From Rhynchopus sp. YZ270_cl-10 (lineage: Eukaryota): DNA of 64,000 nt. The DNA lies in contig OZ037835.1 of assembly GCA_964035575.1 (NCBI GenBank), positions 1,116,001 to 1,180,000 of the forward strand, written 5' to 3'. Shown one piece after another: positions 8,736 through 43,784 of this stretch (within the stretch, counting starts at the first letter, position 1; the number at the start of each line of letters is the position of its first letter). Under the pieces are notes generated by a model. It was not told the origin of the DNA. It saw only the letters and a program-made list of their open reading frames with translations, and made no database searches. Position numbers and translations under genes: made by a program.

Positions 8736-8829
8736 TTTCCTTAACACTCTGTGTTAAGGTTTTTAAGGTTGCTTTTGTGGCGTTCCCCCTCCCCTCTAGG
8801 CACCCCCCCCCCCCCCCCCCCCCCCCCTA

Positions 8830-10842: not shown

Positions 10843-10864
10843 CCCCCCCCCCCCCCCCCCCCTA

Positions 10865-11717: not shown

Positions 11718-12906
11718 TAGGGGGTACGACTCCAGCCATTTTTTGCGCACGGAAAATTCATTTGGCATTATCTGGTCATCTCCAAGGCAACTGCGGGTGA
11801 AAAACACCCTCAGAGTGGGTCACAGGGGGCCTGTGGGTCGAAAAACGACCCAGAAGCCACCCCAGAATACAAAAAAATGGAAAAAAATAGTGAAAAAACG
11901 GCTTTTTTCACGTTTTGGCCACTTTGGGCAAAATAGCGATTTTTCGAGAAAAAAATCAAAAACCGGGATATTTTTTGACATCACAAAGCCTCCTTTGGCA
12001 CAAATATACCCCAAAAGTGGCCTGTGAGTCCATTCCAACCTGTTTTGGACATATTTGACACTTTTGGAAGTGTTTTTTGGTGTTTTTAGGTCAAAAAAAT
12101 GCCCAAGACGTCCCCAAGACATCCCCAGACACTTTGCACACCCCCTGTTACGGTCATATTTTTTTCGTTTTTTTGCCTGAAACCCCCAAAATACCCCTCC
12201 CGGACCCCACATAGTCCCGAATATCCATCACACACCCACTCAGAGTGAGTAGAAGCACCCCAAAAAAAATATTTTTTAAAGCCCTAAAATTGTGCTTCAG
12301 TTTCGGCAGCATCCATGTTGAAGTTGAAGGGCTTTAAAAAATATTTTTTTTGGGGTGCTTCTACTCACTCTGAGTGGGTGTGTGATGGATATTCGGGACT
12401 ATGTGGGGTCCGGGAGGGGTATTTTGGGGGTTTCAGGCAAAAAAACGAAAAAAATATGACCGTAACAGGGGGTGTGCAAAGTGTCTGGGGATGTCTTGGG
12501 GACGTCTTGGGCATTTTTTTGACCTAAAAACACCAAAAAAACACTTCCAAAAGTGTCAAATATGTCCAAAACAGGTTGGAATGGACTCACAGGCCACTTT
12601 TGGGGTATATTTGTGCCAAAGGAGGCTTTGTGATGTCAAAAAATATCCCGGTTTTTGATTTTTTTCTCGAAAAATCGCTATTTTGCCCAAAGTGGCCAAA
12701 ACGTGAAAAAAGCCGTTTTTTCACTATTTTTTTCCATTTTTTTGTATTCTGGGGTGGCTTCTGGGTCGTTTTTCGACCCACAGGCCCCCTGTGACCCACT
12801 CTGAGGGTGTTTTTCACCCGCAGTTGCCTTGGAGATGGCCAGATAATGCCAAATGAATTTTCCGTGCGTTTGGTCCCAGCCAAAATGGCTGGAGTCGTAT
12901 CCCCTA
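11718..12906. mobile_element. Foldback-3 (TAGGGG(G/A)TACGACTCCAGCCATTTT termini; ~570-bp near-perfect arms) inserted in poly-C
   Basis: 11718-12285 is essentially the reverse complement of 12330-12906 (mirror ORFs in the track), with a ~45-bp spacer. Followed by a C run. Confidence 0.9.
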
Positions 12907-14365: not shown

Positions 14366-15321
14366 AGTAATAGGAGAAAACCAGATATCGGCGCAAAATC
14401 CTAAACCCCCCACAAATGTACCTGCGCCAATATCAGTGCAAAGGGTAATCAATTTATTTCACTTTGTATAACTTGTAGCATGCCTGCCTTGTAGATCTTC
14501 CAGTGTGATCATAGCTATGTTATGGAGAGAAACTAGGCTTCACACTTCGTAGAGCATCAGCCAACTGTAGACTTGAGTACGGTGTTGTAAGTCTGTACAT
14601 AGAGACAGTTCAGAAAGGCACCGGAATGTCCCCAGATAGAGCAGGAATAAAAGCATACAGTGTGTCGTGAGGTAGTACAGAATCATTTTGCTGGGATCAT
14701 CTTCGGATATTGTTTCTCTTCTTTTTTTTTTGTTGTTGATTTATATAATGTGGAATTTTTAATGTTAGATTATTGGCGCAGATTTTTAGTTCAGATTTTG
14801 GCGCAGATTTTTGGGTATGATTTTGGAATAAGTCCCTCATTCTCCTCAATCTCCTCAAACTGTCCACTTAACGATTGAGGAGATTGAGGAGATTGAGGAG
14901 TGCACGTTTCCACAACCACCCAGGAGGTAGTGCACTTGGAGCGTTAGTCATTATTTTACGTGGCGTTCCCCTGTAGGCCTATACCACGGGTTCTCTTGAA
15001 CCACAATTACCGTAATGGTTACTTTAGGAGAGAAAGTGTATATTCCTGTCTGGGTGTGGGTGTGGGTGTGGTGTTGTATGGTGGATGAGGAGCAATACAG
15101 AAGAAAAAAATACACGTAGGTCTCAACTTTTTTTTACCCTCCGATTGTTTTTTGTTTTCTTTTCTTTTTTTTGTTGCATCGACAATCACCCTTTCAAAAG
15201 ACAGGGTTCTGTGCACAATGTCAGTTTTTATTTTTCTACTCGTATCTACTGTACTTTTTCCCCCCGATGTGCGAGCACAACTACACTACTTTATGTCCAC
15301 TACCTATAAAAAAAAACACAC

Positions 15322-17145
15322 CAAAACAAAACAAAACAAAACAAAACAAAACAAAACAAAACAAAACAAAACAAAACAAAACAAAACAAAACAAAACAAA
15401 ACAAAACAAAACAAAACAAAACAAAACAAAACAAAACAAAACAAAACAAAACAAAACAAAACAAAACAAAACAAAACAAAACAAAACAAAACAAAACAAA
15501 ACAAAACAAAACAAAACAAAACAAAACAAAACAAAACAAAACAAAACAAAACAAAACAAAACAAAACAAAACAAAACAAAACAAAACAAAACAAAACAAA
15601 ACAAAACAAAACAAAACAAAACAAAACAAAACAAAACAAAACAAAACAAAACAAAACAAAACAAAACAAAACAAAACAAAACAAAACAAAACAAAACAAA
15701 ACAAAACAAAACAAAACAAAACAAAACAAAACAAAACAAAACAAAACAAAACAAAACAAAACAAAACAAAACAAAACAAAACAAAACAAAACAAAACAAA
15801 ACAAAACAAAACAAAACAAAACAAAACAAAACAAAACAAAACAAAACAAAACAAAACAAAACAAAACAAAACAAAACAAAACAAAACAAAACAAAACAAA
15901 ACAAAACAAAACAAAACAAAACAAAACAAAACAAAACAAAACAAAACAAAACAAAACAAAACAAAACAAAACAAAACAAAACAAAACAAAACAAAACAAA
16001 ACAAAACAAAACAAAACAAAACAAAACAAAACAAAACAAAACAAAACAAAACAAAACAAAACAAAACAAAACAAAACAAAACAAAACAAAACAAAACAAA
16101 ACAAAACAAAACAAAACAAAACAAAACAAAACAAAACAAAACAAAACAAAACAAAACAAAACAAAACAAAACAAAACAAAACAAAACAAAACAAAACAAA
16201 ACAAAACAAAACAAAACAAAACAAAACAAAACAAAACAAAACAAAACAAAACAAAACAAAACAAAACAAAACAAAACAAAACAAAACAAAACAAAACAAA
16301 ACAAAACAAAACAAAACAAAACAAAACAAAACAAAACAAAACAAAACAAAACAAAACAAAACAAAACAAAACAAAACAAAACAAAACAAAACAAAACAAA
16401 ACAAAACAAAACAAAACAAAACAAAACAAAACAAAACAAAACAAAACAAAACAAAACAAAACAAAACAAAACAAAACAAAACAAAACAAAACAAAACAAA
16501 ACAAAACAAAACAAAACAAAACAAAACAAAACAAAACAAAACAAAACAAAACAAAACAAAACAAAACAAAACAAAACAAAACAAAACAAAACAAAACAAA
16601 ACAAAACAAAACAAAACAAAACAAAACAAAACAAAACAAAACAAAACAAAACAAAACAAAACAAAACAAAACAAAACAAAACAAAACAAAACAAAACAAA
16701 ACAAAACAAAACAAAACAAAACAAAACAAAACAAAACAAAACAAAACAAAACAAAACAAAACAAAACAAAACAAAACAAAACAAAACAAAACAAAACAAA
16801 ACAAAACAAAACAAAACAAAACAAAACAAAACAAAACAAAACAAAACAAAACAAAACAAAACAAAACAAAACAAAACAAAACAAAACAAAACAAAACAAA
16901 ACAAAACAAAACAAAACAAAACAAAACAAAACAAAACAAAACAAAACAAAACAAAACAAAACAAAACAAAACAAAACAAAACAAAACAAAACAAAACAAA
17001 ACAAAACAAAACAAAACAAAACAAAACAAAACAAAACAAAACAAAACAAAACAAAACAAAACAAAACAAAACAAAACAAAACAAAACAAAACAAAACAAA
17101 ACAAAACAAAACAAAACAAAACAAAACAAAACAAAACAAAACAAA
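15322..17145 (+). repeat. Perfect (AAAAC)n microsatellite, ~1.8 kb
   Basis: Uninterrupted pentamer repeat. Confidence 0.98.
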
Positions 17146-21596: not shown

Positions 21597-23184
21597 TGGA
21601 GGCGCCTGTCTGCCATATCTGGTCGAGCGCCAGCGACGGTGCCTCCTTTGTCTTGTTGGGCCCTACGACAATGAAAGATGAAAACGCGTGTGAACTGGAC
21701 GCTGCGACACCGTCGAACGCTTCTCCTGCATCTTGATCTGCGCAAACTTGTGCGCATCCAGCAGCAGCTTCGACAGCGCCACAATCTGGTTCGGGCGGAA
21801 GGTTGCGCGACTGCTAGATCAGACGCATCACGAACATGTCGCGCTGCCCCTCCGCCAGATGCTTCCACGGCACCACGTGGTGATCGGCGACGGCGGCATC
21901 GGCGTCACGTCAAACCCGAGGGCCGCTGCAGCACCCGAGTTTGTCTTCTCCCCAGCCGCCATGTCCGCAACCCCCTCAAGCGAGGAGTCCTTCTTCGACG
22001 GGTTCACTGTCCCAACAAAGGCAATGTTCTCGCGGTGGGTATTCGTCGAAAAGTTCTTCAGATTCGTAGGAAACTCTCCTGCCGACGCGCGTACCCGTCA
22101 ATTCGCATTGAGGAGCTGTTCACTGCCCTCATCGCCATGGCTGCAGCTGACTCTGTTGCCCCGCGAGATTACGGCCTGGTGGCTTCCCACGACAACTCCA
22201 CGGCGGAGTCACGTACCACAAAGGATCTTCACTGCCTTTTCCTGTGCGGAGACTGATGGATCACTTCGCACAGGCATACTAAGGCATCGCGGCCCCGACA
22301 TCCCCTAGAGAATCTACGCAACAGAGAAGGTTGTGGGTGAGCGCTCGATGTCGTGCAGTTGTGGTGTGAGGGAGAACCGGTTTAGACTCTTGTCGTATAG
22401 GGGGTGGCATCTGAGCATGGTACCCCTATGTCGTATTCCCTCGCATCGATCAGAAGGCGAGCCAATCGGTCTTCTGCGCGATCTTGAAGGTGGGGCAGCC
22501 TTGCGGATGGGGACAATACTGGTGATACGGATCACCCTCTATTCCTTCAGGGCGGCGCTACACATCAACGTCACCTCCACAGCCATGCAGACTAGGATGT
22601 AGTACCTCTGGTTCTTCCACGTGCGCTCAATCGCCCACACACCGCAATCCTGCAGCTCCATGTTCCGCGTCATCGCAACGGAGCGTGAACAGCGTCCCAT
22701 AAAAAACAACGCCTCCTCAGCAGGGAAGCCGATCCGGATCCCAGGTACATCCGTAAACGTCATACAGGCTCAGTGGGCTCGTCGTCGTCACATTGCAGGG
22801 AAAACTACGCAAGCAACGGGCACTAGTGTCGTGTAGGTTCCGTCCGACACAACCTCCACGTCTGGAAGCTGGCGCCGAGCACCTGCAGCATACGTCCTTC
22901 GTTCCCGTCACCGGAGTGTACGAAAACTCCCGCTACACCACTGGCAACCACTGCCCACTCTTGCGCGGTCGTTGCTGTCGGCGGGTGCTACGGTGTCCTG
23001 CTCAAACGCTCTGCTGGTACCTGCCGTCCAACGTGCGTGTGAGTGACACAAGATTGTGGAGGCACGTCGTTCTGCTTCTTCCGCAGATGGCCTCCCAGCG
23101 TCGTTTGTCGCCAACCCGAAGCGTCGTGGTGGACACACAGATCGCAGCCTGTGCACGGGATCGCTCCTGCAGGTTCAGCGTCTA

Positions 23185-23330
23185 GGCCAGGACGGTTGTG
23201 TCACCAGTACTCAACCGCGTGAGTCCGCACCTTCGGGCATCACCTTCCCTCATAGCTCATGTCAAAGCCGTCTTCGCACAGCGCTGCTGCAGACGCCATC
23301 GTACGCCATACGTCCGCAGTTGTATCATAT
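23185..23330 (-). pseudogene. Diverged UBL-domain relic related to the UBL-LRR family
   Basis: Minus-strand translation ~DTTADVWRTMASAAALCEDGFDMSYEG...EGAD...STGDTTVL aligns to DDTVEGLRRKVASAMGLPEDGFCMSFG...EGADMTQLSAGDTIIL. Confidence 0.6.
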
Positions 23331-24977
23331 AAAGAAAGCTTTTTGATAAAAATTAGCGAAATACAAAAACCAGCGCGTGTGGAAGAAAAAAGGAGAGGAA
23401 AATATTTTTTCTGATTCAAAGTGGTGTTTACGTTTTGGGTACGGGGCGGAGAATAAAATCTGTTCGATAAAAGAAACGCGAGCTTATTGTTTTATCTTGT
23501 TCACAAAAAAAAGTATCAAATGCGTATAGAACATAGGGTACTTGGCAAGAGACAAATAAAAGTAGGAATAAAGGGAGAGAGGCATGAGAGGGGAATGTGT
23601 TTGCTTTTATTTGAACGCACCAGAGACACGGTTGTGATGCCGTTGTGATGTAAAGAGCAATACAAGAAAATATATCTGAGGGGTTGGACCGTTTTGCTGC
23701 TGCAGTTTTTTTTGTTTTTTTTGTTTTTGTGTTGTCGACAATCGCCTAGACGACCCCAGAGGGGATGCCTAAGGTCTGTACTCATCGTTGGCCGGAGCCT
23801 TTGTACTACTTTTTTTTTTGAGGGTGGGCGAGATAAAATAACCAAACGTAAAACTCAGAACGAAGAGAAAAAACCTACCATACAAAACAAAAACAAAAAA
23901 AAAATCCTAAATCCAAATAACGTGCCAGAGAAGGGTAGGGCGAACCCTGGCCGCATCGAAATACACACAAAAAAAAATACCATACAAAAAAAAAAAGACA
24001 ACGTTGAAACCAGAGCTCGCGCTAAAGTCCATCCCTCATCCCGGGATTTTTGGGGGTTTTGGTAGGAACGTTTTTTTTTTTGCAGTACGGGGATTTCATT
24101 AAGAAACCAGAAGTTCTAATATTGTTGAGTAAGACCACCACATAGTGGACTTGCATATACATGTGACCCCGCCGTGGAACGCAATTGGCTCGGAAAGTCA
24201 AAAGAAAGAGGAGAAAAAAGAAAAGGAAAAAAAAAAAAAGTTGGTTACCGTGCGCCTGCGGCGCTGCCTGTTCCCTTCCAGTTTCTACAGGCAAACACTT
24301 GCCCCCTTTACCTTACACTGACGGGTTTTGACCAAAACCAAGAACTTGTCCATTTCGGCAAATTGACCCCACCACAGAACGGACGAATTCCGGAAATGCA
24401 AATGCCGGTGTTTTCGCGCATTTTCATGTTGCAAGACGTTCAGGATCAGGGAGAGAAAATCTGGTTGTGGGATTTACATTGGCCCTCTTTACCCACATGG
24501 ATTTTGACCAAAACCAAAAAATTGGCCATTTCGGCAAAGTGACCCCACCACAGCGCGGACGGATTCCGGAAATTCCAATCGCGGTATGTTTTGGGGCTGA
24601 AAACCCACTGATTTTCAGGAGAAAAATTGCTTCCAAATCTCGGAATTTTCCGAATTTTCCTGAAAATGACCCTTGTTTACGAGTATGGGTTCATATTTTG
24701 CGAAAATTTAAGTCACTAAAATTTTGTCCATTTTTCCGTATATACCCCACCACAAGCCGGGATTGGCCCGGAAATGCCACAAAACGGGGTTTCCGGGCCT
24801 CCCCAGCTAACCTTTTCAAGGAACGTTTTTCCGTACCCGAAATCCATTTTTTCCCCATTTTTTCCCATAATTAGCGCGACCACTGGTTGAAACTGCAGAG
24901 ACCTCTTGGTGTGGGTAATCTACTTTATTAATCGACTTTATTTACGAGACATGCCATGAGCATTAACTTTTGCGAGG

Positions 24978-27900
24978 CTAGAGTTTGCTCGGATCAGCAT
25001 CTTTCTCAATTGCATCCGACTTCGGCTTTGGCGATGATGAAGGAAACTCACACTTCGGGATCTCACGCTTCAGGATCTCGGCACGGATACATGCCATCAT
25101 CTGCACGAACCAGAGTCTGTTCTTAGGGCTCAGTAGGCTCACTCCGTAGTCCTCACCAGGTTTCAACGCATCCATCGGGACGTACTCGACCTGTCAAAAC
25201 AAAGAGGAAGTATAGGAAGTATACAATAAAAAAATAATATTCACGACAGAATTGAACTCTGTGAAGTAAGAATAAAAGCTTTTCTTAAGCGTTGAGGACA
25301 ACCTGCGTCTAAACCTTTTGATTCGTGAAGCACAAAGGCTTCGATCGACACGGCGACAGATCTCCACCCGTGGGGTAGAGTAATTTTGTTGATACGGGGG
25401 GGGGGGGGGGTAGGTGGGGGCAAAACCCCTATTTTTTTGAGGCATTTCGATTTTTTTGGATTTACGTGCAAAGTACCCGCAAACCACCGAAAATTTCGGG
25501 TCAGAGATGGTTTTGGGGTGTGGTTTGGGGGTGTTCTATAGGTGAGACACCCCAGAGATACAAAAAAATGGAAAAAAATAGCAAAAATAGACCATTTTGG
25601 CCGTTTGGGCCATTTTGGTCAAAATGGCCATTTTTGACCAATATTTCAAAAAAAAAAGCAAAAATTTGTCATCATTAGGCCTGTCTGGGCACAAATATGC
25701 CCCAAAAATGTCCCGCGAGTCCATTCCGACCTGTTTTGAACACATTTATCGCCTTTTTTGGTGTTTTTTTGGTGTTTTGAGGTCAAAAAAGATCCCCTGA
25801 CTATCCCCTGGCAGCCCTGGGCCGCGACTTGCGCCCTGCTTTTGGACCCCCTCTGGGCCAAAAAATGGGTGAAAACCCTCGAAAAAGCACTCCGGGGACC
25901 CAGATAGTTCCATATATCCACCAGAAACCCACCCAAACACCTCAAAAACATGCCAGAAAAATATTTTCAAAAACACACTTTTTTCAAAAAGTTCATCTGG
26001 GCAGGTTCCATAATGACTTATTTGAAAAAGTGTGTTTTTGAAAATGTTTTTCTGACATGTTTTTGAGGTGTTTTTGAGGGTGTGCGGTGGAAATTTGGAA
26101 CTATCTGGGCTCCCAGAGTGCTTTTTCGGAGGTTTTCGCCCATTTTTTGGCCCAGAGTGGGTCTAAAAGCAGGGCGCAAGTCGCGGCCCAGGGCTGCCAG
26201 GGGATAGTCAGGGGATCTTTTTTGACCTCAAAACACCAAAAAAACACCAAAACAAGTGCCTAAAGTGTCCAAAACAGGTCGGAATGGACTCACAGGACAT
26301 TTTTGGGGTAGTTTTGTGCCCAAGCAGCTGTCATGATGTCGAAATTTTGCTGTTTTTTTGATTTTTTTCTCAAAAAATGGCCATTTTACCCAACATGGCC
26401 AAAACCGTCAAAAGCCACTTTTTCACTATTTTTTTTGCATTTTTTCATATGGGTCGATTTCAAACCCCCCCCCCCCCCCCCCCAAAAGTTCTTTTTTGTC
26501 TTTTTCATGATATAGGCAGTTTTTTTGCAGTCTGAGGTCCGGAACCGCCCCAAAAACGATTTTCTGGGAGGTTTTGGGTGGTTTTGGGGCGAAATGGACC
26601 TTTTTTGACCATTTTTATGGTATTTTTAGGCTGTTTTTGGCCCTTCTTCTTACACAGCCTATTGGGGGTCAAAATAGCTATTTTTGACCAAAAAACACAA
26701 TTTATTTGACGCCAGGAGGCCTCCGTTGGCCCAAATATATCCCAAAAATGGGCTGTGAGCCCAATCCGACCTGTTTTGGGCACATTTGGCACTTTTCTTG
26801 GTGCTTATTTGATGTTTTTTGGTCAAAAATAGCTATTTTGACCCCCAATAGGCTGTGTAAGAAGAAGGGCCAAAAACAGCCTAAAAATACCATAAAAATG
26901 GTCAAAAAAGGTCCATTTCGCCCCAAAACCACCCAAAACCTCCCAGAAAATCGTTTTTGGGGCGGTTCCGGACCTCAGACTGCAAAAAAACTGCCTATAT
27001 CATGAAAAAGACAAAAAAGAACTTTTGGGGGGGGGGGGGGTTTTGAAATCGACCCATATTCTGAGGTGCCCTAATCATGGATTTTCGGGTCTCAGGGTGT
27101 TTCTGACCCATTTCTGGGGGGTATGAGGGGTGTTGACAGGTTTTTTGCTCACAAAACCACTTTTTCCAAAAATGCCTCACCCGTCCTGAAGGTTTTGCCC
27201 CCCCTAGGCATACTGTGCAGGCGAGCCGTTTTTAGGCGAGTTTTTCGTTTTCCTGATTTTCAGGAAAAACTCGCCAAAAACTCGCCCTACTCGCCCATTA
27301 CTCGCCTATTACTCGCCAAAACTCGCCAAAAACTCGCCAAAACTCGCCAAAAACTCGCCTAAACTCGCCTAAACTCGCCCACATTTGGGTGCAAATCCTG
27401 GTGCACATACGCACCTTGGGGGTGAAAATGTGCACCAGGATGTGAAAATGGAGGGCGGGGGTGACTGATGACAACATGCCACTCGAAAACACACAAAAAA
27501 ATTGAAAATGTGTCACTTGTACGTCTAACGGCAACCATGTCACGGCAGTGGCTGACAGGTATGTATGTAAACATTTGCTCCAGGGGAAGATCCAGGCGTG
27601 CCATAGATCCCGGGTGACAAGACGTGCTACAATCCGGAGGATGACGAAGACATGAGCCGGGGCTACACTCGCTATACAACAATGTCCTCGCCATGCCGGT
27701 AAATGGCAACCCTGCAGGCCACCCCTTGGCGGTATTCCCCACGACTACATCGCACCCATCTGTGCAAGCTTCATGGATCCGCAGAAGCTAACTGGTGGTA
27801 CTGGTTGTGGAAGCCTACAAAGCAAACTGTAGAGGTCTTGTTCAAGTGGAACGAAAAAAATTTTCTCTTCAAAACTCAAATTTCCCTCATATTTTCGTGT

Positions 27901-28941
27901 GTACATTTTTCCCAAGGTAAAATCCCTACCTAAAAAAAAAACTCGCCAAAACTCGCCCCCCAAAAATAGGCGAGTTTTAGGCGAGTTTTTGGCGAGTAGG
28001 CGAGTTTTTTTTACTCGCCCGCACAGTATGCCTAGGGGGGGGGGGGGGGGGGAAAGGCAAGTTGATACCTGCAGCTTGGTCTCTGGGATGACACCCTTCT
28101 CGCACACGTCCTCGATCTGCGCTGCGGTCATCTCCAGCTTGAAGAAGGCAACCATGTGGTCGATCAGGCGGACTGCGTACACCTCACATGGCTTATACTT
28201 TTTCGTCTTGTTCCGGTAGTGCGCTGAGATCATCTCCCCGATGATTTGAGCAGCAGAGCGCTCCAGCATCCCCTCAGTCACTTTCAGCTTGCCTGTTTTG
28301 TCCTTCGACAGTTTGTCCTCCCAGATGAACACAATTTGATCTGATGCTTCGCTGTGGCGTTTTGCCACGTAAACGTCAGCCTCGCTGTTGATCGGCATCC
28401 CGGCAAACTTGAAATCGATTGGTTGGCAGGTGATCGTGAACCCCTTGCTATTGAACCCACATAAGATTATCAGTTGCATGGCCAACACATCCGGGAACTT
28501 CTCCGAAGCTTCAGACACTACCCGGGTTTCAGGAATCGTGTGCTGACGGAGGACTTGCTGCAGCTTTACGAAGGTGTCGTCCACATAATCCTTGACCTGC
28601 CATAAACCTTCATGAGGCACACCCTTCAGGTCCAGCTTCCACTCTCCTTTGAAGATGTCGTCCCTTCTGGCAGGGCACTCGGCAAACACTCTCTCTGCCG
28701 GGAACAAGTCGATGGTATCGAGGTTGTCCTTGGGGAACCCGAGCCCAGTCTTAAATACCATGTCGCAAATGGGTTCTACCCAGTCAAGGTGCCACTTGCT
28801 AGTGGGGTGAAGTCCCTCCCCCTGCGGCTTCCTAAAGTGAGTCAGGTCGATGCTCTTCTGTGACAACACCGAGCTAACTGAGAACGACCGCACAACAGGT
28901 GATGATAACCTGATGATACGTGCGAATGGGTTCCGATGCAT
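24978..28941 (-). CDS. Two-exon PD-(D/E)xK (restriction-endonuclease-fold) protein with predicted mitochondrial presequence, 361 aa; exons 28941-28069 and 25190-24978
   Basis: ATG at 28941 (MHRNPFARIIRLSSPVVRSFSVSS). Phase-0 donor CAG|GTATC at 28068 and acceptor TTTTGACAG|GTC at 25191 give ...ETKLQ|VEYVPMDALK.... Motifs ADVYV, WEDK, AQIIGEMISA, VAFFK. Confidence 0.75.
25411..27206. mobile_element. Foldback-2 copy 2, in a poly-G tract inside the nuclease-gene intron
   Basis: Homologous to 9654-10842. G runs on both sides (25396-25410 and 28035-28052, the latter beyond MITE-1 copy 3). Confidence 0.85.
26451..27055. mobile_element. Foldback-4 (GGGTCGATTTCAAA termini, ~245-bp arms), TSD ATAT (or AT)
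   Basis: ATAT at 26447-26450 and 27056-27059. Empty site TTTCATATTCTGAGG is visible in foldback-2 copy 1 at ~10686-10700. Confidence 0.9.
27207..28032. mobile_element. MITE-1 copy 3
   Basis: Same TIRs; located in CCTAGG at the right end of foldback-2 copy 2. Confidence 0.9.
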
Positions 28942-28959
28942 TGTGTTTGTGTTGTAAAC

Positions 28960-29015
28960 CTGTAGTGGGTCTGTGTCATGTATAGGAGAGAGGTAGAGGA
29001 GGGTAGAGGAGAATT
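28960..29015 (-). promoter_or_regulatory. Polypyrimidine tract + AG acceptor 18 nt upstream of the ATG (candidate trans-splice or 5'UTR intron acceptor)
   Basis: Minus strand reads TTCTCCTCTACCCTCCTCTACCTCTCTCC...CCACTACAG|GTTTACAACACAAACACAATG. Confidence 0.5.
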
Positions 29016-29595
29016 TAAAAAAAAGAGGGGCTGGGAGGGGTTCGTTTGTTTGTACATGCCTAAGGCATTCCAAAAGGCAGACAGTGCACCTCTTCGCAAA
29101 GAAGGGATGTGAGCAGGCGGAAGCCTGGTCTGACAAAAAAAAAAGTTTATCGTTTGATAATCACCTTCGGATTCCCAACACATTTGCTTCTGCAACACAT
29201 CACAGTCATGATCTTGCTCCCAACACTGCCACTTGAGCTCACATCTCTAGTCTTCGTTGTTGCTGTTCTGTCAGACATGTCTTTTCTCTTATCGTCCTGG
29301 AAATACAATCTCGTCAAAGTTCCTTCGATACTTCAGTTCAGGGATAATTGGTTGGTTGTCGATCATGACAAAGTTGTACCTGGGCAGACCATCATGAACG
29401 GCCATGAGGGGAGAAGCTTTGAGTGTTGATCGTCTACAGCTGGCTTTGTCTTCTCAACATAATTGTGGATCATTTTCAATAAGAAAATGCAACTGAACAA
29501 CACATCAAGTCTCGAGAAACTCCTTCTTGATATTGGTAGACTGAAGGACTCCATAGCACACCAACGCTCTGATGCTCTAAATGAGCAAGGTGTCT

Positions 29596-30552
29596 ACGCA
29601 ACCAACGCAACGCAACCGATGCATACGTAGCGATCTGTATGCAACGAACGCGACGCAACCAACGCAACGCAACCGATGCATACGTAACGATCTGTATGCA
29701 ACGAACGCAACGCGTGCAACGCAACGCAACCGATGCATACGTAACGATCTGTATGCAACGAACGCAACGCATCCAACGCAACGCAACCGATGTATACGTT
29801 ACGATCTGTATGCAACGAACGCGACGCAACCAACGCAACGCAACCGATGCATACGTTACGATCTGTATGCAACGAACGCAACGCAACCGATGCATACGTA
29901 ACGATCTGTATGCAACGAACGCAACGCAACCGATGCATACGTAACGATCTGTATGCAACGAACGCAACGCATCCAACGCAACGCAACCGATGTATACGTT
30001 ACGATCTGTATGCAACGAACGCAACGCAACCGATGCATACGTAACGATCTGTATGCAACGAACGCAACGCAACCAATGCATACGTAACGATCTGTATGCA
30101 ACGAACGCAACGCAACCGATGCATACGTAACGATCTGTATGCAACGAACGCAACGCAACCGATGCATACGTAACGATCTGTATGCAACGAACGCAACGCA
30201 ACCGATGCATACGTAACGATCTGTATGCAACGAACGCAACGCAACCGATGCATACGTAACGATCTGTATGCAACGAACGCAACGCATCCAACGCAACGCA
30301 ACCGATGCATACGTAACGATCTGTATGCAACGAACGCAACGCGTGCAACGCAACGCAACCGATGCATACGTTACGATCTGTATGCAACGAACGCGACGCA
30401 ACCAACGCAACGCAACCGATGCATACGTAACGATCTGTATGCAACGAACGCAACGCGTGCAACGCAACGCAACCGATGCATACGTAACGATCTGTATGCA
30501 ACGAACGCAACGCAACCGATGCATACGTTACGATCTGTATGTAACGAACGCG
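29596..30552 (+). repeat. AACGC-rich minisatellite (43/58-bp variant units)
   Basis: Core GCAACGCAACCGATGCATACGTAACGATCTGTATGCAACGAAC; related to the family A/B central repeats. Confidence 0.95.
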
Positions 30553-31266
30553 TTCCAAAAGGCAGCCCGGCTGCGGTGGGGTGCTCAGTCTCGCGCCAGT
30601 TGCGTGGTTAAACCAGTCTGTGTGGGTTTTTGGGTGGTTTTTACCCACCAACGCCTTTACCGTTTTTTGCTGTACAAACATGGGTTGCGTGGCACTGCAA
30701 AGGGCACGTGTGCACGACTGTGTATGACCCATACGTGGTCAAAACACTCCGTAGATGCGTTTCGCACGCCGCATGCACGCGTATGCCTCCTAAAAACCGG
30801 TTTCTGTGTGGTTTTTGACCACAAACGCCTTTGCCGTTTTTACGTGTAAAAACGTGGTACTGCAAAGGCACGTGTGCACCTCTGTATATGACCCATATAT
30901 GGTCATAACACCCCCTAGATGCGTTTCGCACGCCGCATGCACGCGTATGGGCCCTAAAAACCGGTTTCTGGCCCAAAAACCCGCCTAAACAGGTGCTTTT
31001 TTTTTACACGTTTTTACAGCAAAAAAAGTACTAGGCGGTTTGCGACCAAAAAATCGGGTTTCGAGTTAGGTGGTCCAAAAACGGCCTCCTGAGCGCTGTA
31101 ACCGCAGTGTGTCGTTTCCGGGCCAGTATGAGGCCATTCGTACCACTTTTCCAGGTTTTGGAGGCTGTTCGCCGATTTTTGGCATTTTCGGAATTTGGCC
31201 ATCTTTTACCTCTTACTTACCTTAGCAAAAACGACCCCTTTTTTTGGTCGGGGGTTCATGGCCCCA

Positions 31267-34640: not shown

Positions 34641-36106
34641 TCCGGTTCGTTACGTTGCGTTCCGTTCGTTGCGTTCCGTTCGGTGCGTTCCGTTCGTTGC
34701 GTTCAGATCGCAACGTACAGATCGGTTCCGTTCGGTGCGTTCCGTTGGTTGCGTTCAGATCGTTGCGTTCAGATCGCAACGTACAGATCGGTTCCGTTCG
34801 GTGCGTTCCGTTGGTTGCGTTCCGTTCGTTGCGTTCCGTTCGTTGCGTTCCGTTCGTTGCGTTCAGATCGCAACGTACAGATCGGTTCCGTTCGGTGCGT
34901 TCAGATCGTTGCGTTCCGTTCGTTGCGTTCAGATCGCAACGTACAGATCGGTTCCGTTCGGTGCGTTCCGTTGGTTGCGTTCCGTTCGTTGCGTTCCGTT
35001 CGTTGCGTTCAGATCGCAACGTACAGATCGGTTCCGTTCTGTTCGTTGCGTTCCGTTCGGTGCGTTCCGTTCGTTGCGTTCAGGTCGTTGCGTTCAGATC
35101 GCAACGTACAGATCGGTACCGTTCTGTTCGTTCCGTTCGTTGCGTTCAGATCGCAACGTACAGATCGGCACCGTTCTGTTCGTTCCGTTCGTTGCGTTCC
35201 GTTCGGTGCGTTCCGTTCGTTGCGTTCAGATCGCAACGTACAGATCGGCACCGTTCTGTTCGTTCCGTTCGTTGCGTTCCGTTCGGTGCGTTCCGTTCGT
35301 TGCGTTCAGGTCGTTGCGTTCAGATCGCAACGTACAGATCGGTACCGTTCTGTTCGTTCCGTTCGTTGCGTTCAGATCGCAACGTACAGATCGGTAACGT
35401 TTACTTTCTCTTTGGGTCATAAGGTACGCCCTTCTCTGACCACGACATGAAACACAAAGCCAAAACAATTGATCACCGGAAAGGTCCTGTATGTCCGTTC
35501 GGTGCGTTCCGTTCGTTGCGTTCAGATCGCAACGTACAGATCGGTTCCGTTCGGTGCGTTCAGATCGTTCCGTTCCGTTCGGTGCGTTCAGATCGTTGCG
35601 TTCCGTTCGGTGCGTTCCGTTCGTTGCGTTCCGTTCGGTGCGTTCCGTTCGTTGCGTTCAGATCGCAACGTACAGATCGGTTCCGTTCCGTTCGTTCCGT
35701 TCGGTGCGTTCCGTTCGGTGCGTTCAGATCGTTGCGTTCCGTTCGGTGCGTTCCGTTCGGTGCGTTCAGATCGCAACGTACAGATCGGTTCCGTTCCGTT
35801 CGTTCCGTTCGGTTCGTTCCGTTCGTTGCGTTCCGTTCGTTGCGTTCAGATCGTTGCGTTCCGTTCGGTGCGTTCAGATCGCAACGTACAGATCGGTTCC
35901 GTTCCGTTCGTTCCGTTCGGTTCGTTCCGTTCGTTGCGTTCCGTTAGTTGCGTTCAGATCGCAACGTACAGATCGGTTCCGTTCCGTTCGTTCCGTTCGG
36001 TTCGTTCCGTTCGTTGCGTTCCGTTCGTTGCGTTCAGATCGCAACGTACAGATCGGTTCCGTTCGGTGCGTTCCGTTCGTTGCGTTCAGATCGCAACGTA
36101 CAGATT
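34640..36106 (+). repeat. CGTT-rich modular minisatellite (core GTTCAGATCGCAACGTACAGATCGGTTCC), continuing at 57769-58856 and 59970-62290
   Basis: Directly visible; same unit in all three blocks. Confidence 0.95.
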
Positions 36107-36909: not shown

Positions 36910-38439
36910 ATGACCTCACCGGATCACGCCATGGACGTAGATGCAGAGACGCAGCCGGCACCCTCCCTCACGCTCCGGAACCCGGCGGCAACGCCAGCAG
37001 CCGCGGCACGGCTAGCGGAAGCAGAAGGCTTCCTGCTGGAAGTGTCGCGGTCGGCGCATGACGCGCACGAGTGGGAGAAGAACGCAGACGAGAAGGCGAG
37101 GCAAGTCCTCTCGCAACACCGTATGTCAGTCTCCCCCCTCACCCTCAAAAGAAGAGAACCCTCCTCTCAACATATTTTTAAATTTTATTTTGAGGGAATC
37201 CCATCCCCCGAAGCCCCCATACTATCTTTCTCCGGTGTGAACGGGGTGTTCATACGCCCCGCCCGCACCAACTCAAATGACGGACTTACGTCGGTCATTT
37301 GGCCAGAAGCGTCCTACGACGAAACGCTGGAGCACTCGGAAAGAGTACAGGGGAGGGTGGTAATGGGTAGATTAGGGGATTTCGGGATCGTTGTCCCAAA
37401 AAAGGACGAAGTGAAGGCATGGGAAACAGTGGGAAAGGCGGAAAGGGCAGGGGAGGCAAGCTACAGGCTCACCGGCTTACCCACCACGTGCACACCCGAG
37501 GACCTAGTGTCGGCAATTTCCCAAACGGGACGCCACATCAGAGGGAGAAGCACTCGCAGGGAAACAGCACCCGGGGGCACACACACACACACACTCCTGG
37601 TCGCAATGCATGCACAACCACCACCCCCACCCTCCTTCACATTTGGGGAGCATGTGATCGTCTGCACACCAGCGATCCATGCAAAATTCCCCCCACACAA
37701 AAAAAACACGACCTCACAGACACAAAAAGGAGGAAAGGGGAGGGGGAGAGGAAAGGGCTACCAAAGCCCAGGAGCAAAGGGTCAGGGCGGGGGCAGGGGA
37801 GGAGCAAAGAGCGGGGAAGGGGGGAAGCAGGCACACAGTGCATCCCTCCCAATGGGAGTAGGGCTCGGCCAGAATGCAACGTCCCCCAAAACGGTGGGAG
37901 GCGATGGGAACGAGAACATGGGTGGAAAGGGAAGCGGGAAGGGGAACAAGGGAGGCAAGGGAAAGGGGAGCGTACCAGCGACCGGACCCTCAGTTTGGGA
38001 CGCGAGGTTTTCCGATTTGGAAAAGAGAGTGGAAGCTCTCTCTACAAATCAGGAAAACCTCGCGTCACAATTGAGGGTGGGCTTAGCCGAAGGCTTCGAA
38101 CAAATCAGCCAAGGGTTATCGCTAAGCCTAGAAAAGCTCCTCCCCAAGAGCACAAGACCCGGAAAGAAAGGCGGTGCAAAACTAAGTGTCGACACCAACA
38201 TCGGCACAGAAGACGACGAAGAAATGACAGAAGGCAAAACGCCTTCGTCAAAGACACCGCTACCGTCTGGATCCCCCAGGAAAACGCCCAAAGGGAAAAG
38301 GGCGAGGGTGGGAGAGGAGCACGCGCGGAACACGTCCGCCAAGACTGGGGACAGCTCCCCCACAGCCCGGACGATACCGGGGGGGATAACGGTGCGGTCG
38401 CCGCGGTCCAGCAACAAGGGGATCAAACTCGTCGTGTAG
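36910..38439 (+). CDS. LINE ORF1 (gag-like nucleic-acid chaperone by position), 509 aa
   Basis: Intact ORF upstream of ORF2 with G/K-rich region and coiled-coil-like segment (FSDLEKRVEALSTNQENLASQL). No CCHC knuckle seen. Confidence 0.8.
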   Translation: MTSPDHAMDVDAETQPAPSLTLRNPAATPAAAARLAEAEGFLLEVSRSAHDAHEWEKNADEKARQVLSQHRMSVSPLTLKRREPSSQHIFKFYFEGIPSPEAPILSFSGVNGVFIRPARTNSNDGLTSVIWPEASYDETLEHSERVQGRVVMGRLGDFGIVVPKKDEVKAWETVGKAERAGEASYRLTGLPTTCTPEDLVSAISQTGRHIRGRSTRRETAPGGTHTHTLLVAMHAQPPPPPSFTFGEHVIVCTPAIHAKFPPHKKNTTSQTQKGGKGRGRGKGYQSPGAKGQGGGRGGAKSGEGGKQAHSASLPMGVGLGQNATSPKTVGGDGNENMGGKGSGKGNKGGKGKGSVPATGPSVWDARFSDLEKRVEALSTNQENLASQLRVGLAEGFEQISQGLSLSLEKLLPKSTRPGKKGGAKLSVDTNIGTEDDEEMTEGKTPSSKTPLPSGSPRKTPKGKRARVGEEHARNTSAKTGDSSPTARTIPGGITVRSPRSSNKGIKLVV

Positions 38440-38834
38440 ACCATACCACCACCCCCCTCCCTATCTCTCCAACCCCACCCTCCCTAATCCAACCTCCTCC
38501 AACTACACACAAACTCATCCCCCTTACACCCCACAAAACAAAACATGTACCGGTACAGCAGCACCAACAACAACAACATCAGCAGCAACAACAGCAGAGG
38601 CACCTAATACGACAGCAACAACAACAACATCACCAGCAGCAACAACAGCAGCATCAACAGCAGTGGCCGCTTACACGACAACAACAACAGCAACATCACC
38701 AGCAGCATCAACAGCAGCAACGACAGCTACAACAACAACGGCAACAGCAACAACAACAACGACAACATCACCAGCAGCAGCAACAGCAACAGCACCAACA
38801 ACTGCACCAACAGCTGCAACCATCTGAGGGACGA

Positions 38835-38903
38835 CGCCACCTCCTACACCTGAGACGTCTACTTCTCCTGAGGTGCGGCGACGTAGAGCAGAACCCCGGA
38901 CCA
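38835..38903 (+). other. 2A-like ribosomal skipping (StopGo) peptide
   Basis: RHLLHLRRLLLLRCGDVEQNPG|P matches the DxExNPGP consensus and lies immediately before the APE domain. Confidence 0.9.
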
Positions 38904-41726
38904 GAGGAAGCCCTGAAGCTGATCAGCTTCAACTGCAACGGGCTGACCGAGCAACGGGAAGAGGAGCTGCAGGAGTTACTGAACTCGGAGCACTTCGATG
39001 TGGTGGCTCTGCAGGAGCTGAAGGAGGCGCAGACAGCACTGCCCGCGTTCCCGGGCTACACCCCCTTCCTCCGGAAGCGCACGCAACGCCGCACCCCCAA
39101 TGGCAGCCTGTACTCCGGAGGCGGCATAGCCACGCTGGTGCACACAAGCCACCAAGCCTCCCTCACCTGGGCCAGCGGGGAGCCAAGTGTGACGGAGCGT
39201 CTTGACGTGAGGGTGACGACGGAGCATCGGGAGTACACGGTGACGAACCTGTACCGACCTGGAGGTGTAGGCAGCAGCGCTGATGACCTGCGTGTGGACG
39301 ACTTCTCTGCAGATGACCTCCCCTCCGACGAAGACTCCATCATCCTCGGTGACTTCAACGTCCACCACCCTGCGTGGGACCTCCAAGCGAAGCCAGATGC
39401 CAAAGGGTCACAGCTACACCAGTGGTCGCTGCGCAACGCCATGCAGGTGCTCAACTGCCCCAACACAGTCACGCGCTTCTCCGGAACAGTCTTCTCCTCA
39501 CCGGACATCACCTTGGTACACAGGAACGTAGAAGCCACATGGACCACACTTTGCGCACGAGGCTCCGACCACCTCCCCATCCTAGTCACAGTGCAACCTC
39601 CGACGGAAGGGGAGGAAGTGAACGGAGGCGACGAAGACGCGACAGTGCCCGAACACCTGCTGAGATGGTGCTGGTCACGTGCGGATTGGGAGGCGTACAC
39701 GGCAGAGCTGGAGCGTTACGCCCCCAAGGCCCACAACTGGGGTGGTGTAGATGCGGTGAACAGGTTCACGGGATTGTGCAAAAACATCGCAGAAAAACAC
39801 ATCCCACTCTCCCACCACACCTCCACACCAAGGGTCAGGAAGTCGTGGTTCACTCCTCAGGTCCATGAATTGCTGCAAGAACGCAACGCAGTGACGGAAC
39901 TACTTCTCTCCGCGGACGAGACGGAACGCGACGTCCAAGCCGAAAAGCTGAAAGAGCTGAAGGTCGCCACCTCCTGTGCCATCATGGATGCGAAGCAGCA
40001 GGCATGGGTGCGTAGCTGCAACGCCGCCACACCACCACCTCTCAGCAGCACTTTCCGGAGGTTGAAGGAGCTCAGTGGTGACCGGGTGAAACCCATCACC
40101 AAAGCAGTCGCTACCCCGGAGGGCCCTCTGACGAACACACCGCAGGAAAAAGCGAACACCCTGGCCCGCTACTTCGCCGCAGTGAGTGGAGACGGCACGC
40201 CCCCTTCTCTCGCCAACCCGCAGCGTACTGCTAGGCGCAACAACACACAGAGCGCGGGCTACACCGGAGCGGCAAGCGAAGCTCCCTTCACCTTGCCGGA
40301 GCTCGATTACGCGATGAGCTCGCTGAAGCTGGGCAAAGCACCTGGGCTGGACGAGATGCACAACGAGCTCTTGCTGCATCTTGGGCCCAAAGGACGAGAC
40401 GCCTTACTCCACGTCCTCAACTTATCCTGGTGCAAAGGTGAACTCCCTACATCGTGGCTGCAGAGCAACATCGTGCCCATCGCTAAGAACGGGAAGGACG
40501 CCAGCATCCCCGCGTCGTACCGCCCCATCTCTCTTACGAGCAACGTCTGCAAACTCTTGGAGAAGATGGTCAAGTGCCGCATCACCCAGATGCAAGACAG
40601 TCCGGACCTGCCGCAGTACAGGGGCCCACACCGCACACAAGCAGGTTTCCGCCGTCGTCTCTCCACGATAGACCAGCTCGCGGCGCTCATGCAGCGGGTG
40701 AATGCGGGGAAGAACCGCCCCACCATCGCACTCTTCTTCGACGTAGAAAAGGCGTTCGACACTGTGTCTCGCAAGCGCATACTCCAGGCGCTGAAGCACA
40801 AGCAGCACCTGCCACCACGCTACCTCAACTGGATTGAAGCCTTCACCAGTGACCGCTCCGCCTGTGTTTCAGTGGATGGAGCAAAGAGTGCGCAGTACGT
40901 GATGAGAGCTGGAGTACCGCAGGGTACAGTACTGTCACCCCTCCTTTTCCTCGCTGCTATGGACGAAGTTGCGGAAGCGCTCGACGACCTCAGTGCAACA
41001 TATCCCACATTCTTCGCCGACGACATGGCAGTCACCGTGCAAGGGGAAACATTAGGGGAAGTGCAAGAATTGGCGCAAGCGGTCATCAACCGTGTCACAG
41101 CGGCGATGGAGCCACTCGGAATGCGCCTCTCCAGCACAAAGACCGTCTTCACCTTCTTCGGCACAAGAAACGTCCTCAACAAGTACCCGTTAGCGGCCGA
41201 CACAGAACTTTGGCTGAGGAACGGTATTCGGGTGCCCTACTCCGCCACACCCAAATACCTGGGATTGACGCTGGATCCGTCCTTGACGATGGAGGCACAC
41301 ACCACCGCAGTCATCACCAGGGTGCAAAAAAGGCTCGGTCTGATGAAGATGTTGTCTGGAACCACGTGGGGAGCTAACACACACACCCTCCGCACCACCT
41401 ATCTCACATACGTACTTCCCCTGATCCGCTATGCTCTTGGCATATACGGTCCACAGCTGTCAACACACCTGATGGACAAGCTGGAGGCCGAACACAACGC
41501 CGCGGCGCGTATCATCACCGGATGTCCTTTGCCTACGTCTCGCGCCAAATTGCTGTGGGAGGCACGCCTGACCCCGATAGTGGACCTGATGCGATTGGAC
41601 GCCGTAACTGCGTTCGAGTTGTTTCGGCGTCACACCGACACGCCAGGGAAAGCGGCCTGCGGCTACACCTCCGCCTCCCTCACGCTCAACAACTGGCTCT
41701 CCGCCGCCCAGCGACTCTCCTCCGAG

Positions 41727-42134
41727 CAGTGCTACCAACGCGACAAGTCGCGCGCGACTCGCGACAAACCACCCGCGACAGCGCGACAAAATGAGTTGTC
41801 GCAAAAATCGAAAATTTTTTTTTTCCATTTTGAGACACTTTTTTTTTTTTTTTTGTTAGGAAAAATCGCGTTTTTTCCGGGTACTTAGCAAAATTTTGGT
41901 CAAAAAATGATGGCTTTTGCTTACGTCGCTACTGTACCGTCTGCGATGGTTTTTTCTGGATTTTTTTTTTTGGATTTTTTTTTCCAAAATCGCCCACACC
42001 CAAAAAAAAAAATTTTTTTTTTTTTTGGTGAAAATTTTTGTGATGTCGAAAAAAAAAATTTTTTTTGGGCGCGACAGCGCGACAAGTGGCACTTTGTCGC
42101 GCGACTAGAATCTCTTGTCGCGTTGGTAGCACTG
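41727..42134. mobile_element. 408-bp MITE, 21-bp perfect TIR CAGTGCTACCAACGCGACAAG, 7-bp TSD CTCCGAG
   Basis: TSD at 41720-41726 and 42135-42141. Empty site present in the minus-strand LINE at ~52028. Confidence 0.93.
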
Positions 42135-43784
42135 CTCCGAGGCACACAAGGAGTTCCGCAGACCTGGGGTGCATATGGCAGATATGCAGCGTCACCTGCC
42201 TGTAGACCCGTGGTATTGGAGTGACGTACTGCCCCGCCTAAGTATCACCGCCACGATACCTGGGATACGCCGCTCCGACCCTGAGCCAGATGACGAAAAA
42301 TTCCTGCTCCTCACAGAGGAGGCCCTCCAACGCCTTCCCCCCTGCGAATGGCACGCCTACACCGACGGCTCTGTCCAGGGCAAAAGCGGGGGTGCTGGGG
42401 TAGTGCTGTACAAGCTCCCCGAGATGCGAGAACCCAACTGCTCCTTCTCCTACGGGGCCGGCACCGGCGCAAGCAGCTTTCAAGCCGAAATGATCGCCAT
42501 AGGCCACTCCATTGACCTTCTCTTTGACAAAGCAACCCCTGGGGCCACCTGCGCCATCCTCACAGACTCGCAATCGTCCCTGCGTGCGCTAGAGAGCGGT
42601 CCCAAGAAGGCCAGAGAGGACTTCGAACACAAACTCTGGAAAGGACTACACCGGCTTGCCGGCAACAACATAAACCTAATACTGCACTACGTCCCCTCGC
42701 ATGTGCAGGTCCTGGGCAATGATGCTGCTGACGCTGCGGCCGCAGAAGGCACCAAGATGGTGCAGAGCCCTGGCCTGTCCTTCTCTGCCGCCAGATCATG
42801 TGCGAGACGTCACCTGGCGAACACCCCTTCCGTCGAGCAGCCCGGCACGAACACGGTGTACGCCAGGAAGGCCGGAGCGGACGTAGCGGTGCTGCAACCT
42901 CCCGTCCACTGCACGGACCTCACCCGCAGGGGGGAAACCACCATCCGCAGCCTCCGAGCTGGCAGCAACCAGCTAACGTTCGACTTCCGCACCTCGTCGA
43001 ACACTGCCACATGCCTGCGATGCGACAAGCCCTGCACCCTGAAGCACCTGTTCTTCTCCTGCCGACAAACGTGTAGCGAAAGCCTCCCGGACCTCCATAC
43101 CCTCCTCATGCGAGAGCCGGCGACCGCCCTGAAGTACCTCGTCAGCGAGAGTTTCCTGCCTGGCCCGCTTGAGGAGTACCTCCGTAACGGTAGTTAGTCG
43201 TGACTGAGTTGTTGTTGATTAATATTATTATGTTCTGTGTTTAATCTTGTGTCATAGGCTGCAGTACGACTTACGTCGCGCTGCTAGCCCCTGACAACAA
43301 GCGTGTTATTCATGTCCCCCTATTTACAACGGGTATTTTGTTGCTTTTCTGCTGTCTTTCCCCACATGTTACCCAATCAAAAGCCTTTCGTTCGCTCATT
43401 CAGCGTTCCCCCTACCCATTTTTCCACATCTCTACCACACTTCTCACACCGTAGAAATCCCTGATGCATAATTCTCTCTCGCTATTGAAGCCCCAGGTCC
43501 CTCCGCACTCGAAGTACGCCCAGAGAGGCGTACTCCACATTTTACCCAGCGGACGCTTCTTTATGCACCTAGTTATCCCCTTTTTATGCCGCCACTCCCT
43601 ACACTCTCTGTACCACAGCACAATGTATTTACCGCTCTTTTGGAGGTCAACAGTCGTTAAACACAAGTAGATTAGGAGCATCTGACTGTACATTAATCAA
43701 TTAAAGCAAACTATACATGTGCGGACGGAGGTGTACCACACATCTACCCTACGAATGCTCTTCCCGTGCCCCAATTCCCCCCTA

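What the first reader, a model, noticed from the sequence alone, without database searches (positions are those of the whole stretch)
24978..28941. Hidden two-exon restriction-endonuclease-fold gene with a mitochondrial-type presequence
Seen: the ORF track splits this gene. A phase-0 GT-AG intron (25191-28068) joins ...ETKLQ to VEYVP...LLSPKNRLWF..., giving 361 aa. The N-terminus is R/S-rich and acid-free with an RSFS motif. Known: D...EDK...Q spacing (ADVYV, WEDK, AQIIGE) is typical of PD-(D/E)xK domains such as those in Crinkler/RHS-type effectors; this resemblance is from memory. Inference: a nuclease aimed at the mitochondrion, of interest if the host has unusual euglenozoan mtDNA or RNA processing.
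Basis: partly seen in the sequence, partly recalled or inferred. Interest (0 to 1): 0.7.

Follow-up and report, generated by a model that had tools for sequence, protein, structure and literature searches.

The report
Mitochondrion-addressed nuclease family resembling mL37/mL65
This real, spliced gene of a diplonemid protist encodes a restriction-enzyme-like protein that keeps its catalytic residues and is likely imported into the mitochondrion; its family's predicted fold is closest to two animal mitochondrial ribosome proteins thought to be retired nucleases.

Summary
The gene is real. A contig of run X1 joins the exons exactly at the 2,878-nt GT-AG intron and another carries a euglenozoan spliced leader at 28959. 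The 361-aa protein has no Pfam family but belongs to a eukaryotic family (74 profile hits: diplonemids, a euglenid, a fungus, many unnamed) that conserves a PD-(D/E)xK site (D189 67/76, E208 and K210 66/76). A confident model of a diplonemid homolog matches animal mitoribosomal mL37/mL65 best (Z 14, next 8.7, type IIG restriction enzymes), and is predicted to be a homodimer (0.58 vs 0.00). Presequence-like N-termini mark 28 of 38 members of the protein's clade and 0 of 7 outside; close paralogs swap to KRK-type (nuclear-like) starts, and an 18-residue segment at the predicted dimer axis is hypervariable. Best reading: a likely mitochondrion-imported, dimeric DNase of a fast-evolving, conflict-type family. 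Localisation, activity and substrate are untested. It is not a Crinkler by architecture, and a role in diplonemid mitochondrial transcript joining is unlikely.

The parts
28942..28959 (-). 5' UTR after the spliced-leader acceptor (AG at 28961-28960)
   Evidence: X1 contig diverges into leader sequence at 28960
28069..28941 (-). coding exon 1, residues 1-291
28882..28941 (-). presequence-like N-terminus, residues 1-20, ending in R-S-F before S21 (R-3 cleavage pattern, recalled)
   Evidence: composition and moment; clade pattern; not tested experimentally
28792..28803 (-). family T-S-x-W motif starting the N-terminal subdomain (W50 in 48 of 50 rows with a residue)
28573..28626 (-). hypervariable segment, residues 106-123, at the predicted dimer two-fold axis
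28489..28503 (-). motif I acidic helix E147...D151
   Evidence: E 55/76, D 60/76
28375..28377 (-). motif II D189
   Evidence: 67/76
28312..28320 (-). motif III E208-D209-K210
   Evidence: 66/76 each
28234..28248 (-). helix motif Q232...E236
   Evidence: 69/76 and 67/76
25191..28068 (-). GT-AG phase-0 intron, 2,878 nt; position shared by the genomic paralogs
25400..28045 (.). about 2.65 kb of dispersed, partly palindromic repeats inserted into a formerly ~230-nt intron
   Evidence: 96% copies at 8821-9663, 9654-10693, 10856-11724 and paralog read-through matching 25244-25401; inverted repeats; DNA contigs joining 25395 to 28045
24978..25190 (-). coding exon 2, residues 292-361: last strand and C-terminal helix of the domain plus a tail
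24927..24977 (-). 3' UTR, at least to 24927
   Evidence: X1 contig extent

Best explanation
A spliced, leader-bearing diplonemid gene encodes a stand-alone PD-(D/E)xK protein that is likely imported into the mitochondrion and predicted to work there as a homodimeric, metal-dependent DNase of a fast-evolving, conflict-type family. Shown: gene structure, transcript, family, conserved D189/E208/K210 with E147, Q232, E236. Predicted: restriction-enzyme fold with an extra N-terminal subdomain, and a homodimer (both on a homolog). Inferred: the first ~20 residues are removed on import; the two subunits bind Mg2+ and cut DNA leaving 5'-phosphate ends (textbook chemistry of the fold); the hypervariable 106-123 segment at the two-fold axis sets which paralogs pair or which target is held; N-terminal swaps send sister copies to the nucleus. 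The likely job is restriction-like removal of foreign, selfish or damaged DNA circles in a DNA-rich organelle, not a housekeeping step.
For: Transcript. Motif conservation across 76 sequences mostly 17-30% identical to the first row; D-E-K intact in 56 of 76. Fold: model of P0028 pLDDT 82; VIA rows after mL37/mL65 are led by restriction-type nucleases (BpuSI and DrdV Z 8.7, HsdR 7.2, NucC 6.5); the window protein's own exon-1 model (pLDDT 63) gives the same top pair then Cas4/RecB; a fungal relative matches cyanobacterial HSDR_N proteins at TM 0.56-0.57. Dimer: ipSAE 0.58 vs best control 0.00, pLDDT 81-82, runs agree in at least 80% of contacts; mark reached by 17 of 29 eukaryotic dimers and 0 of 30 monomers in the tool's calibration. 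Presequence rule met by 28 of 38 N-complete members in the 60-row clade, 0 of 7 outside, 8% of 15,432 internal 20-mers. Conflict-like evolution: 15 close genomic relatives on long contigs; 106-123 identical at 37 of 108 pairwise positions among four copies whose core is 87-90% identical; P0006 and P0009 217/239 identical with KRK-type versus presequence-type starts; a tandem 1.78-kb unit in L001.
Against: No activity, substrate or localisation data. The presequence test is my own crude rule, sequences are related (so the p-values overstate), and it misfiles P0006. Fold and dimer come from P0028, only 27% identical to exon 1, the alignment was not used in the dimer job, and a pass may reflect memory of the solved mL37-mL65 pair (only 1 of 7 eukaryotic dimers without an older solved relative passed). 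The closest structures bind rRNA, not DNA (PMC8998825). Coding differences in close copies are 26 nonsynonymous to 3 synonymous (29 coding rows among 40 shown, 46 hidden; 16 of 18 single-hit codons, p 0.08-0.19): no sign of purifying selection among recent copies, which fits diversification but also drift. 9 of 26 diplonemid-clade rows lack the exact D-E-K triad. Whether the close relatives lie in one genome is not shown.
Confidence: 0.45

Rival explanations
1. A mitochondrial RNA-binding or RNA-cutting protein, a functional analogue of mL37/mL65, that binds rRNA pieces or trims transcripts in the diplonemid mitochondrion.
For: Best structural matches are the two mitoribosomal chains, over 217-239 residues including the N-terminal subdomain; mL37/mL65 form a pseudo-dimer on rRNA domain III (PMC8998825); presequence-like start.
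Against: Many divergent paralogs, some with KRK-type starts; module transcripts carry 3'-phosphate and 5'-OH ends (PMC12699882), the opposite of the usual PD-(D/E)xK products (recalled); nine family motif strings found no family member in the D. papillatum mitoproteome table (exact strings, cells cut at 400 letters); no mention of mL37, mL65 or nuclease in the Diplonema mitoribosome paper's main text.
Confidence: 0.2
2. A Crinkler-like toxin or defence DNase aimed at endosymbionts, prey or viruses, whose basic N-terminus is not an import signal or is incidental.
For: Expansion and hypervariable segment; fungal relatives sit near a cluster with 17% Crinkler members (TM 0.58); REase domains are the toxic part of many CR proteins (PMC5289972).
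Against: No header domain, NTPase or kinase; no longer fused forms among 6,379 candidates (weak); acid-free R-rich starts recur across the clade far above background.
Confidence: 0.2
3. A selfish or mobile gene (REase-type transposase or drifting duplicate) with little host function.
For: Copies on many contigs, repeat-rich setting, nonsynonymous excess among recent copies, several copies with altered active sites.
Against: Leader, shared intron, catalytic residues kept over great distance; no inverted repeat pair flanking the gene in 23000-31000; one copy in the 64-kb window.
Confidence: 0.15

Closest known systems
Animal mitoribosomal proteins mL37 and mL65/mS30 (chains 5 and s of the mitoribosome entries; chain-to-name assignment recalled)
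   Same: Best structural match: Z 13.7-14.7, rmsd 3.4-4.5 A over 217-239 residues, spanning model residues 42-361; Foldseek E 4e-4; mitochondrial; dimer (pseudo-dimer there, predicted homodimer here).
   Different: 7-11% identity, no profile match; mL37/mL65 are metazoan-only (PMC1950548) structural rRNA binders called 'probably repurposed endonucleases' (PMC8998825), while this family keeps D-E-K, is multicopy and fast-evolving.
Type IIG / type I restriction nuclease domains (BpuSI, DrdV, HsdR N-terminal, cyanobacterial HSDR_N proteins)
   Same: PD-(D/E)xK core, Z 7-8.7; TM 0.56-0.57 via fungal relative P0086; E-x-K followed by a Q-bearing helix.
   Different: No methyltransferase or helicase part, eukaryotic, extra N-terminal subdomain and targeting peptide.
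Crinkler/RHS (CR) REase domains
   Same: Eukaryotic, lineage-expanded REase-fold domains; a fungal relative aligns to a cluster with 17% Crinkler members.
   Different: No ubiquitin-like header, NTPase or kinase; stand-alone. The defining paper (Zhang et al. 2016) was not held, so assignment to one of its REase families is untested.
Known mitochondrial PD-(D/E)xK nucleases MGME1 and Exo5
   Same: Same superfamily and compartment.
   Different: Weak structural matches only (Z 3.4-4.9); single-copy housekeeping exonucleases (recalled).

Membership tests
PD-(D/E)xK superfamily | alpha-beta-beta-beta-alpha-beta core fold | tested here: met
   P0028 model H164-177, E187-194, E207-214, E222-229, H239-263, E271-278; matches to many superfamily structures. 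Predicted, on a homolog; window model agrees at lower confidence.
PD-(D/E)xK superfamily | acidic residue on strand 2 and (D/E)xK on strand 3 | tested here: met
   D189, E208, K210 map to P0028 D208, E227, K229 on those strands; 67, 66, 66 of 76.
PD-(D/E)xK superfamily | metal-dependent phosphodiester cleavage | not testable with these tools
   needs assay
Crinkler/RHS (CR) proteins | N-terminal ubiquitin-like or other header domain | tested here: not met
   N-terminus is a short low-confidence basic peptide; no Pfam match in 76 members at E<=10 to a Crinkler or ubiquitin family.
Crinkler/RHS (CR) proteins | NTPase or kinase fused to the REase | tested here: not met
   361-aa transcript-supported gene is REase only; no hit among 624-2000 aa candidates (weak for relatives).
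Crinkler/RHS (CR) proteins | REase domain belongs to one of the published CR-REase families | not testable with these tools
   paper and profiles not held; Atlas gives a fold-level lead only.
mL37/mL65 | shared overall structure | tested here: met
mL37/mL65 | sequence or profile match | tested here: not met
   no mitoribosomal chain in the PDB profile search, no such Pfam family listed.
mL37/mL65 | stable subunit of the mitoribosome | not testable with these tools
   no text or motif hit in the Diplonema papers searched, which is weak.
Mitochondrial presequence proteins | Arg-rich, acid-free amphipathic N-terminus with R-2/R-3 site | tested here: met
   clade enrichment; own rule, not TargetP or MitoFates.
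Mitochondrial presequence proteins | import and cleavage in vivo | not testable with these tools
   needs tagging or proteomics

The most novel reading that the evidence does not exclude
This is a catalytically intact, homodimeric, mitochondrion-imported branch of the eukaryotic nuclease family from which animal mL37/mL65 arose, and in diplonemids and relatives it works as a restriction-like arsenal whose paralogs switch between mitochondrion and nucleus by N-terminal swaps and change specificity through a hypervariable dimer-axis segment.
Probability: 0.25. Interest if true: 0.82.

Novelty: new variant of a known kind. Interest (0 to 1): 0.6.

Why it matters
The origin of the animal-only mitoribosomal pair mL37/mL65 is described only as 'probably repurposed endonucleases' in the review passage read; this family supplies a concrete candidate with an intact active site, the same extra subdomain, a predicted homodimer and presequences, which makes the idea testable. 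For diplonemid biology it adds an unannotated, expanded nuclease family probably acting in an organelle with about 250 Mbp of DNA in more than 80 circles (PMC7049700). The gene and its paralogs are truncated by ORF-only calling, which is why they lack annotation.

Tried and rejected
Pfam, NCBIfam, PADLOC, PHROGs: no shared family (one PADLOC PD_DExK hit in 1 of 76, E 0.003). PDB sequence searches: nothing relevant. No relative in viral contigs, GTDB genomes (close relatives only) or plasmids; BFVD fold search gave no E<=0.001. No whole genome held, so copy number, synteny and dN/dS from paralog DNA were not measured. No run is on record as RNA; depths of contigs were not used as expression or copy number. 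Taxa of the 34-row environmental clade could not be named: 30 proteins looked up gave names for D. ambulator (2), Rhynchopus humris, Ploeotia vitrea and Hesseltinella vesiculosa only; the one locus fetched (L001) holds only the gene. The careful tree did not finish; the quick tree is used, 73 of 76 rows (three under 170 aa left out). mL37/mL65 sequences could not be obtained, so no profile-profile test, no check of their active sites and no interface comparison. Earlier findings: none. Literature searches found no description of this family; Zhang 2016 and the 2014 mitoribosome structure paper were not held. Rejected: chance ORF join (exact junction seen), module-end-forming RNase (end chemistry), bona fide Crinkler (architecture).

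Full report
Observation. The minus-strand gene has exon 1 at 28069-28941, a 2,878-nt GT-AG phase-0 intron and exon 2 at 24978-25190, giving 361 aa. Four public runs were laid on 24850-29150: one X1 contig with no differences skips exactly the intron; X2, X3 and X5 do not show that joint. In a second laying (X1, X4, X2) the X1 contig leaves the genome at 28960 with 21 loose letters while X2 and X4 continue along it; those letters match 21 of the last 22 of a euglenozoan leader in the table of PMC3795323 (passages; that this row is the Diplonema leader is recalled). This is one run of one study, its kind not on record. Independent support: a D. ambulator transcript protein continues into exon-2-like sequence, and the genomic relatives' open frames end or drift right after the same K-L-Q/K-V site. 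The host is thus very likely a diplonemid (leader, canonical intron, closest named relatives D. ambulator and R. humris).

Intron. About 2.65 kb of it is repeat DNA with 96% copies elsewhere in the window and long palindromes. Read-through peptides of four paralogs match 25244-25401 and DNA contigs join 25395 to 28045, so the older intron was about 230 nt. Repeats in introns are ordinary for diplonemids (PMC10161547 passages).

Family. The word search gave 17 hits of 364 candidates: the window's own read-through frame, 15 relatives on long ENA contigs at 47-82% identity and one EukProt protein. A profile over 1.84 billion representatives gave 74 hits. Named members are D. ambulator, R. humris, the euglenid Ploeotia vitrea and the fungus Hesseltinella vesiculosa (5 of 30 looked up); the Atlas places the fungal member among large unnamed Mucoromycota and Basidiomycota clusters. 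No library names the family. In a 76-row alignment E147 (55), D151 (60), D189 (67), E208, D209, K210 (66 each), Q232 (69), E236 (67) and R258 (73) are conserved.

Fold. The exon-1 model (pLDDT 63) matched two mitoribosome chains at Z 8.9 and 8.3, then Cas4/RecB-type nucleases near 5. The full-length homolog P0028 folded with the deep alignment (pLDDT 82, pTM 0.80) matched them at Z 14.1 and 13.7 of 48,161 chains, next BpuSI and DrdV at 8.7; Foldseek and a second look agree. I read chains 5 and s as mL37 and mL65 from memory. The match starts at model residue 42-48, so it includes the T-S-x-W subdomain, whereas the restriction enzymes align only from residue 87 or later. A review calls mL37/mL65 a pseudo-dimer of probably repurposed endonucleases on rRNA domain III (PMC8998825 passages); they are metazoan paralogs (PMC1950548 passages). 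Two copies of P0028 28-362 scored 0.58 against a best control of 0.00, pLDDT 81-82, runs agreeing in at least 80% of contacts; the mark was reached by 21 of 30 microbial dimers and 0 of 23 monomers, 17 of 29 and 0 of 30 in eukaryotes, but by 1 of 7 without an older solved relative, so the pass may reflect the solved mL37-mL65 pair.

Targeting. A quick tree (73 of 76 rows) has a 60-row clade (SH-aLRT 98) made of 26 diplonemid-type and 34 unnamed environmental rows. A simple rule (at least 2 R, at most 1 D/E, R not fewer than K in the first 20 residues) is met by 12 of 18 and 16 of 20 N-complete members of these, by 0 of 7 outside, and by 8% of internal 20-mers. Five of the 7 outsiders and 4 of 18 diplonemid-type rows carry KRK-type motifs; P0006 and P0009 are 217/239 identical yet differ in this way; L001 has a lysine-rich start. 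Relatedness inflates these counts and the rule is mine.

Rapid change. Among the window protein and its three closest relatives, residues 147-291 are 87-90% identical but 106-123 only 37 of 108, and pieces of that segment resemble more distant paralogs. It maps onto the two-fold axis of the predicted dimer (P0028 122-135 is about 109-122 here, with a gap in the alignment). Listed coding differences in close copies are 26 nonsynonymous and 3 synonymous (29 of 40 rows shown, 46 hidden), against 71-77% expected; single-hit codons 16 of 18, not significant; none touches D189, E208, K210, Q232 or E236. This cuts both ways: diversification or drift.

Mechanism. Shown: transcript, family, motifs. Predicted: fold and dimer, on a homolog. 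Inferred: import with cleavage near F20/S21, Mg2+-dependent DNA cutting by paired sites, specificity or pairing set by 106-123, retargeting by N-terminal swaps, a restriction-like or DNA-clearing role (0.45). The RNA or mitoribosome reading (0.2) rests on the mL37/mL65 likeness, but module transcripts end in 3'-phosphate and 5'-OH (PMC12699882 sections 18, 34, 35 part 1, 39 read), unlike usual products of this fold (recalled), nine motif strings found no member in that paper's mitoproteome table (exact match, long cells cut), and PMC10325924's main text has no such term (its supplements not examined). Toxin-like (0.2) and selfish (0.15) readings remain.

Comparison and verdict. Member of the PD-(D/E)xK superfamily by fold and motifs; not a Crinkler by architecture (PMC5289972 passages; Zhang 2016 not held); like mL37/mL65 in structure but not a member by sequence. 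Ten literature searches showed no account of this family; the library lacks most subscription papers. New variant of a known kind, interest 0.6.

Noticed in passing
window 2337-6432 (minus): Tandem ubiquitin-domain plus BspA-type leucine-rich-repeat genes (303-aa copy 5521-6432; a second copy appears split at 2337-4253), sharing the same C-terminal basic tail.
   Followed up: partly
window 36910-43197 (+) and 50973-56875 (-): Two near-identical LINE copies in opposite orientation (APE endonuclease, RT, RNase H); the first is interrupted between 41888 and 42175; a Q-rich stretch precedes the endonuclease.
   Followed up: partly
window 15308-17145: AAAAC microsatellite of 368 copies.
   Followed up: no
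window 29596-30551, 34648-36093, 58107-59573, 59972-62293: Related CGTTG/CAACG-rich satellite arrays, one directly upstream of the gene.
   Followed up: no
window 25649-26359 and 26470-27040: Long palindromic repeat units inside the intron (344-nt arms 87%, 228-nt arms 100%), MITE-like, with copies near 8.8-12.8 kb.
   Followed up: partly
L001 377-1381: Intronless homolog with a lysine-rich N-terminus in a tandem unit of about 1.78 kb, from an unnamed metagenome.
   Followed up: partly
window 28414-28617, run X1: An X1 contig matches both sides of this stretch but not the stretch itself, suggesting an expressed paralog with a replaced variable region.
   Followed up: no
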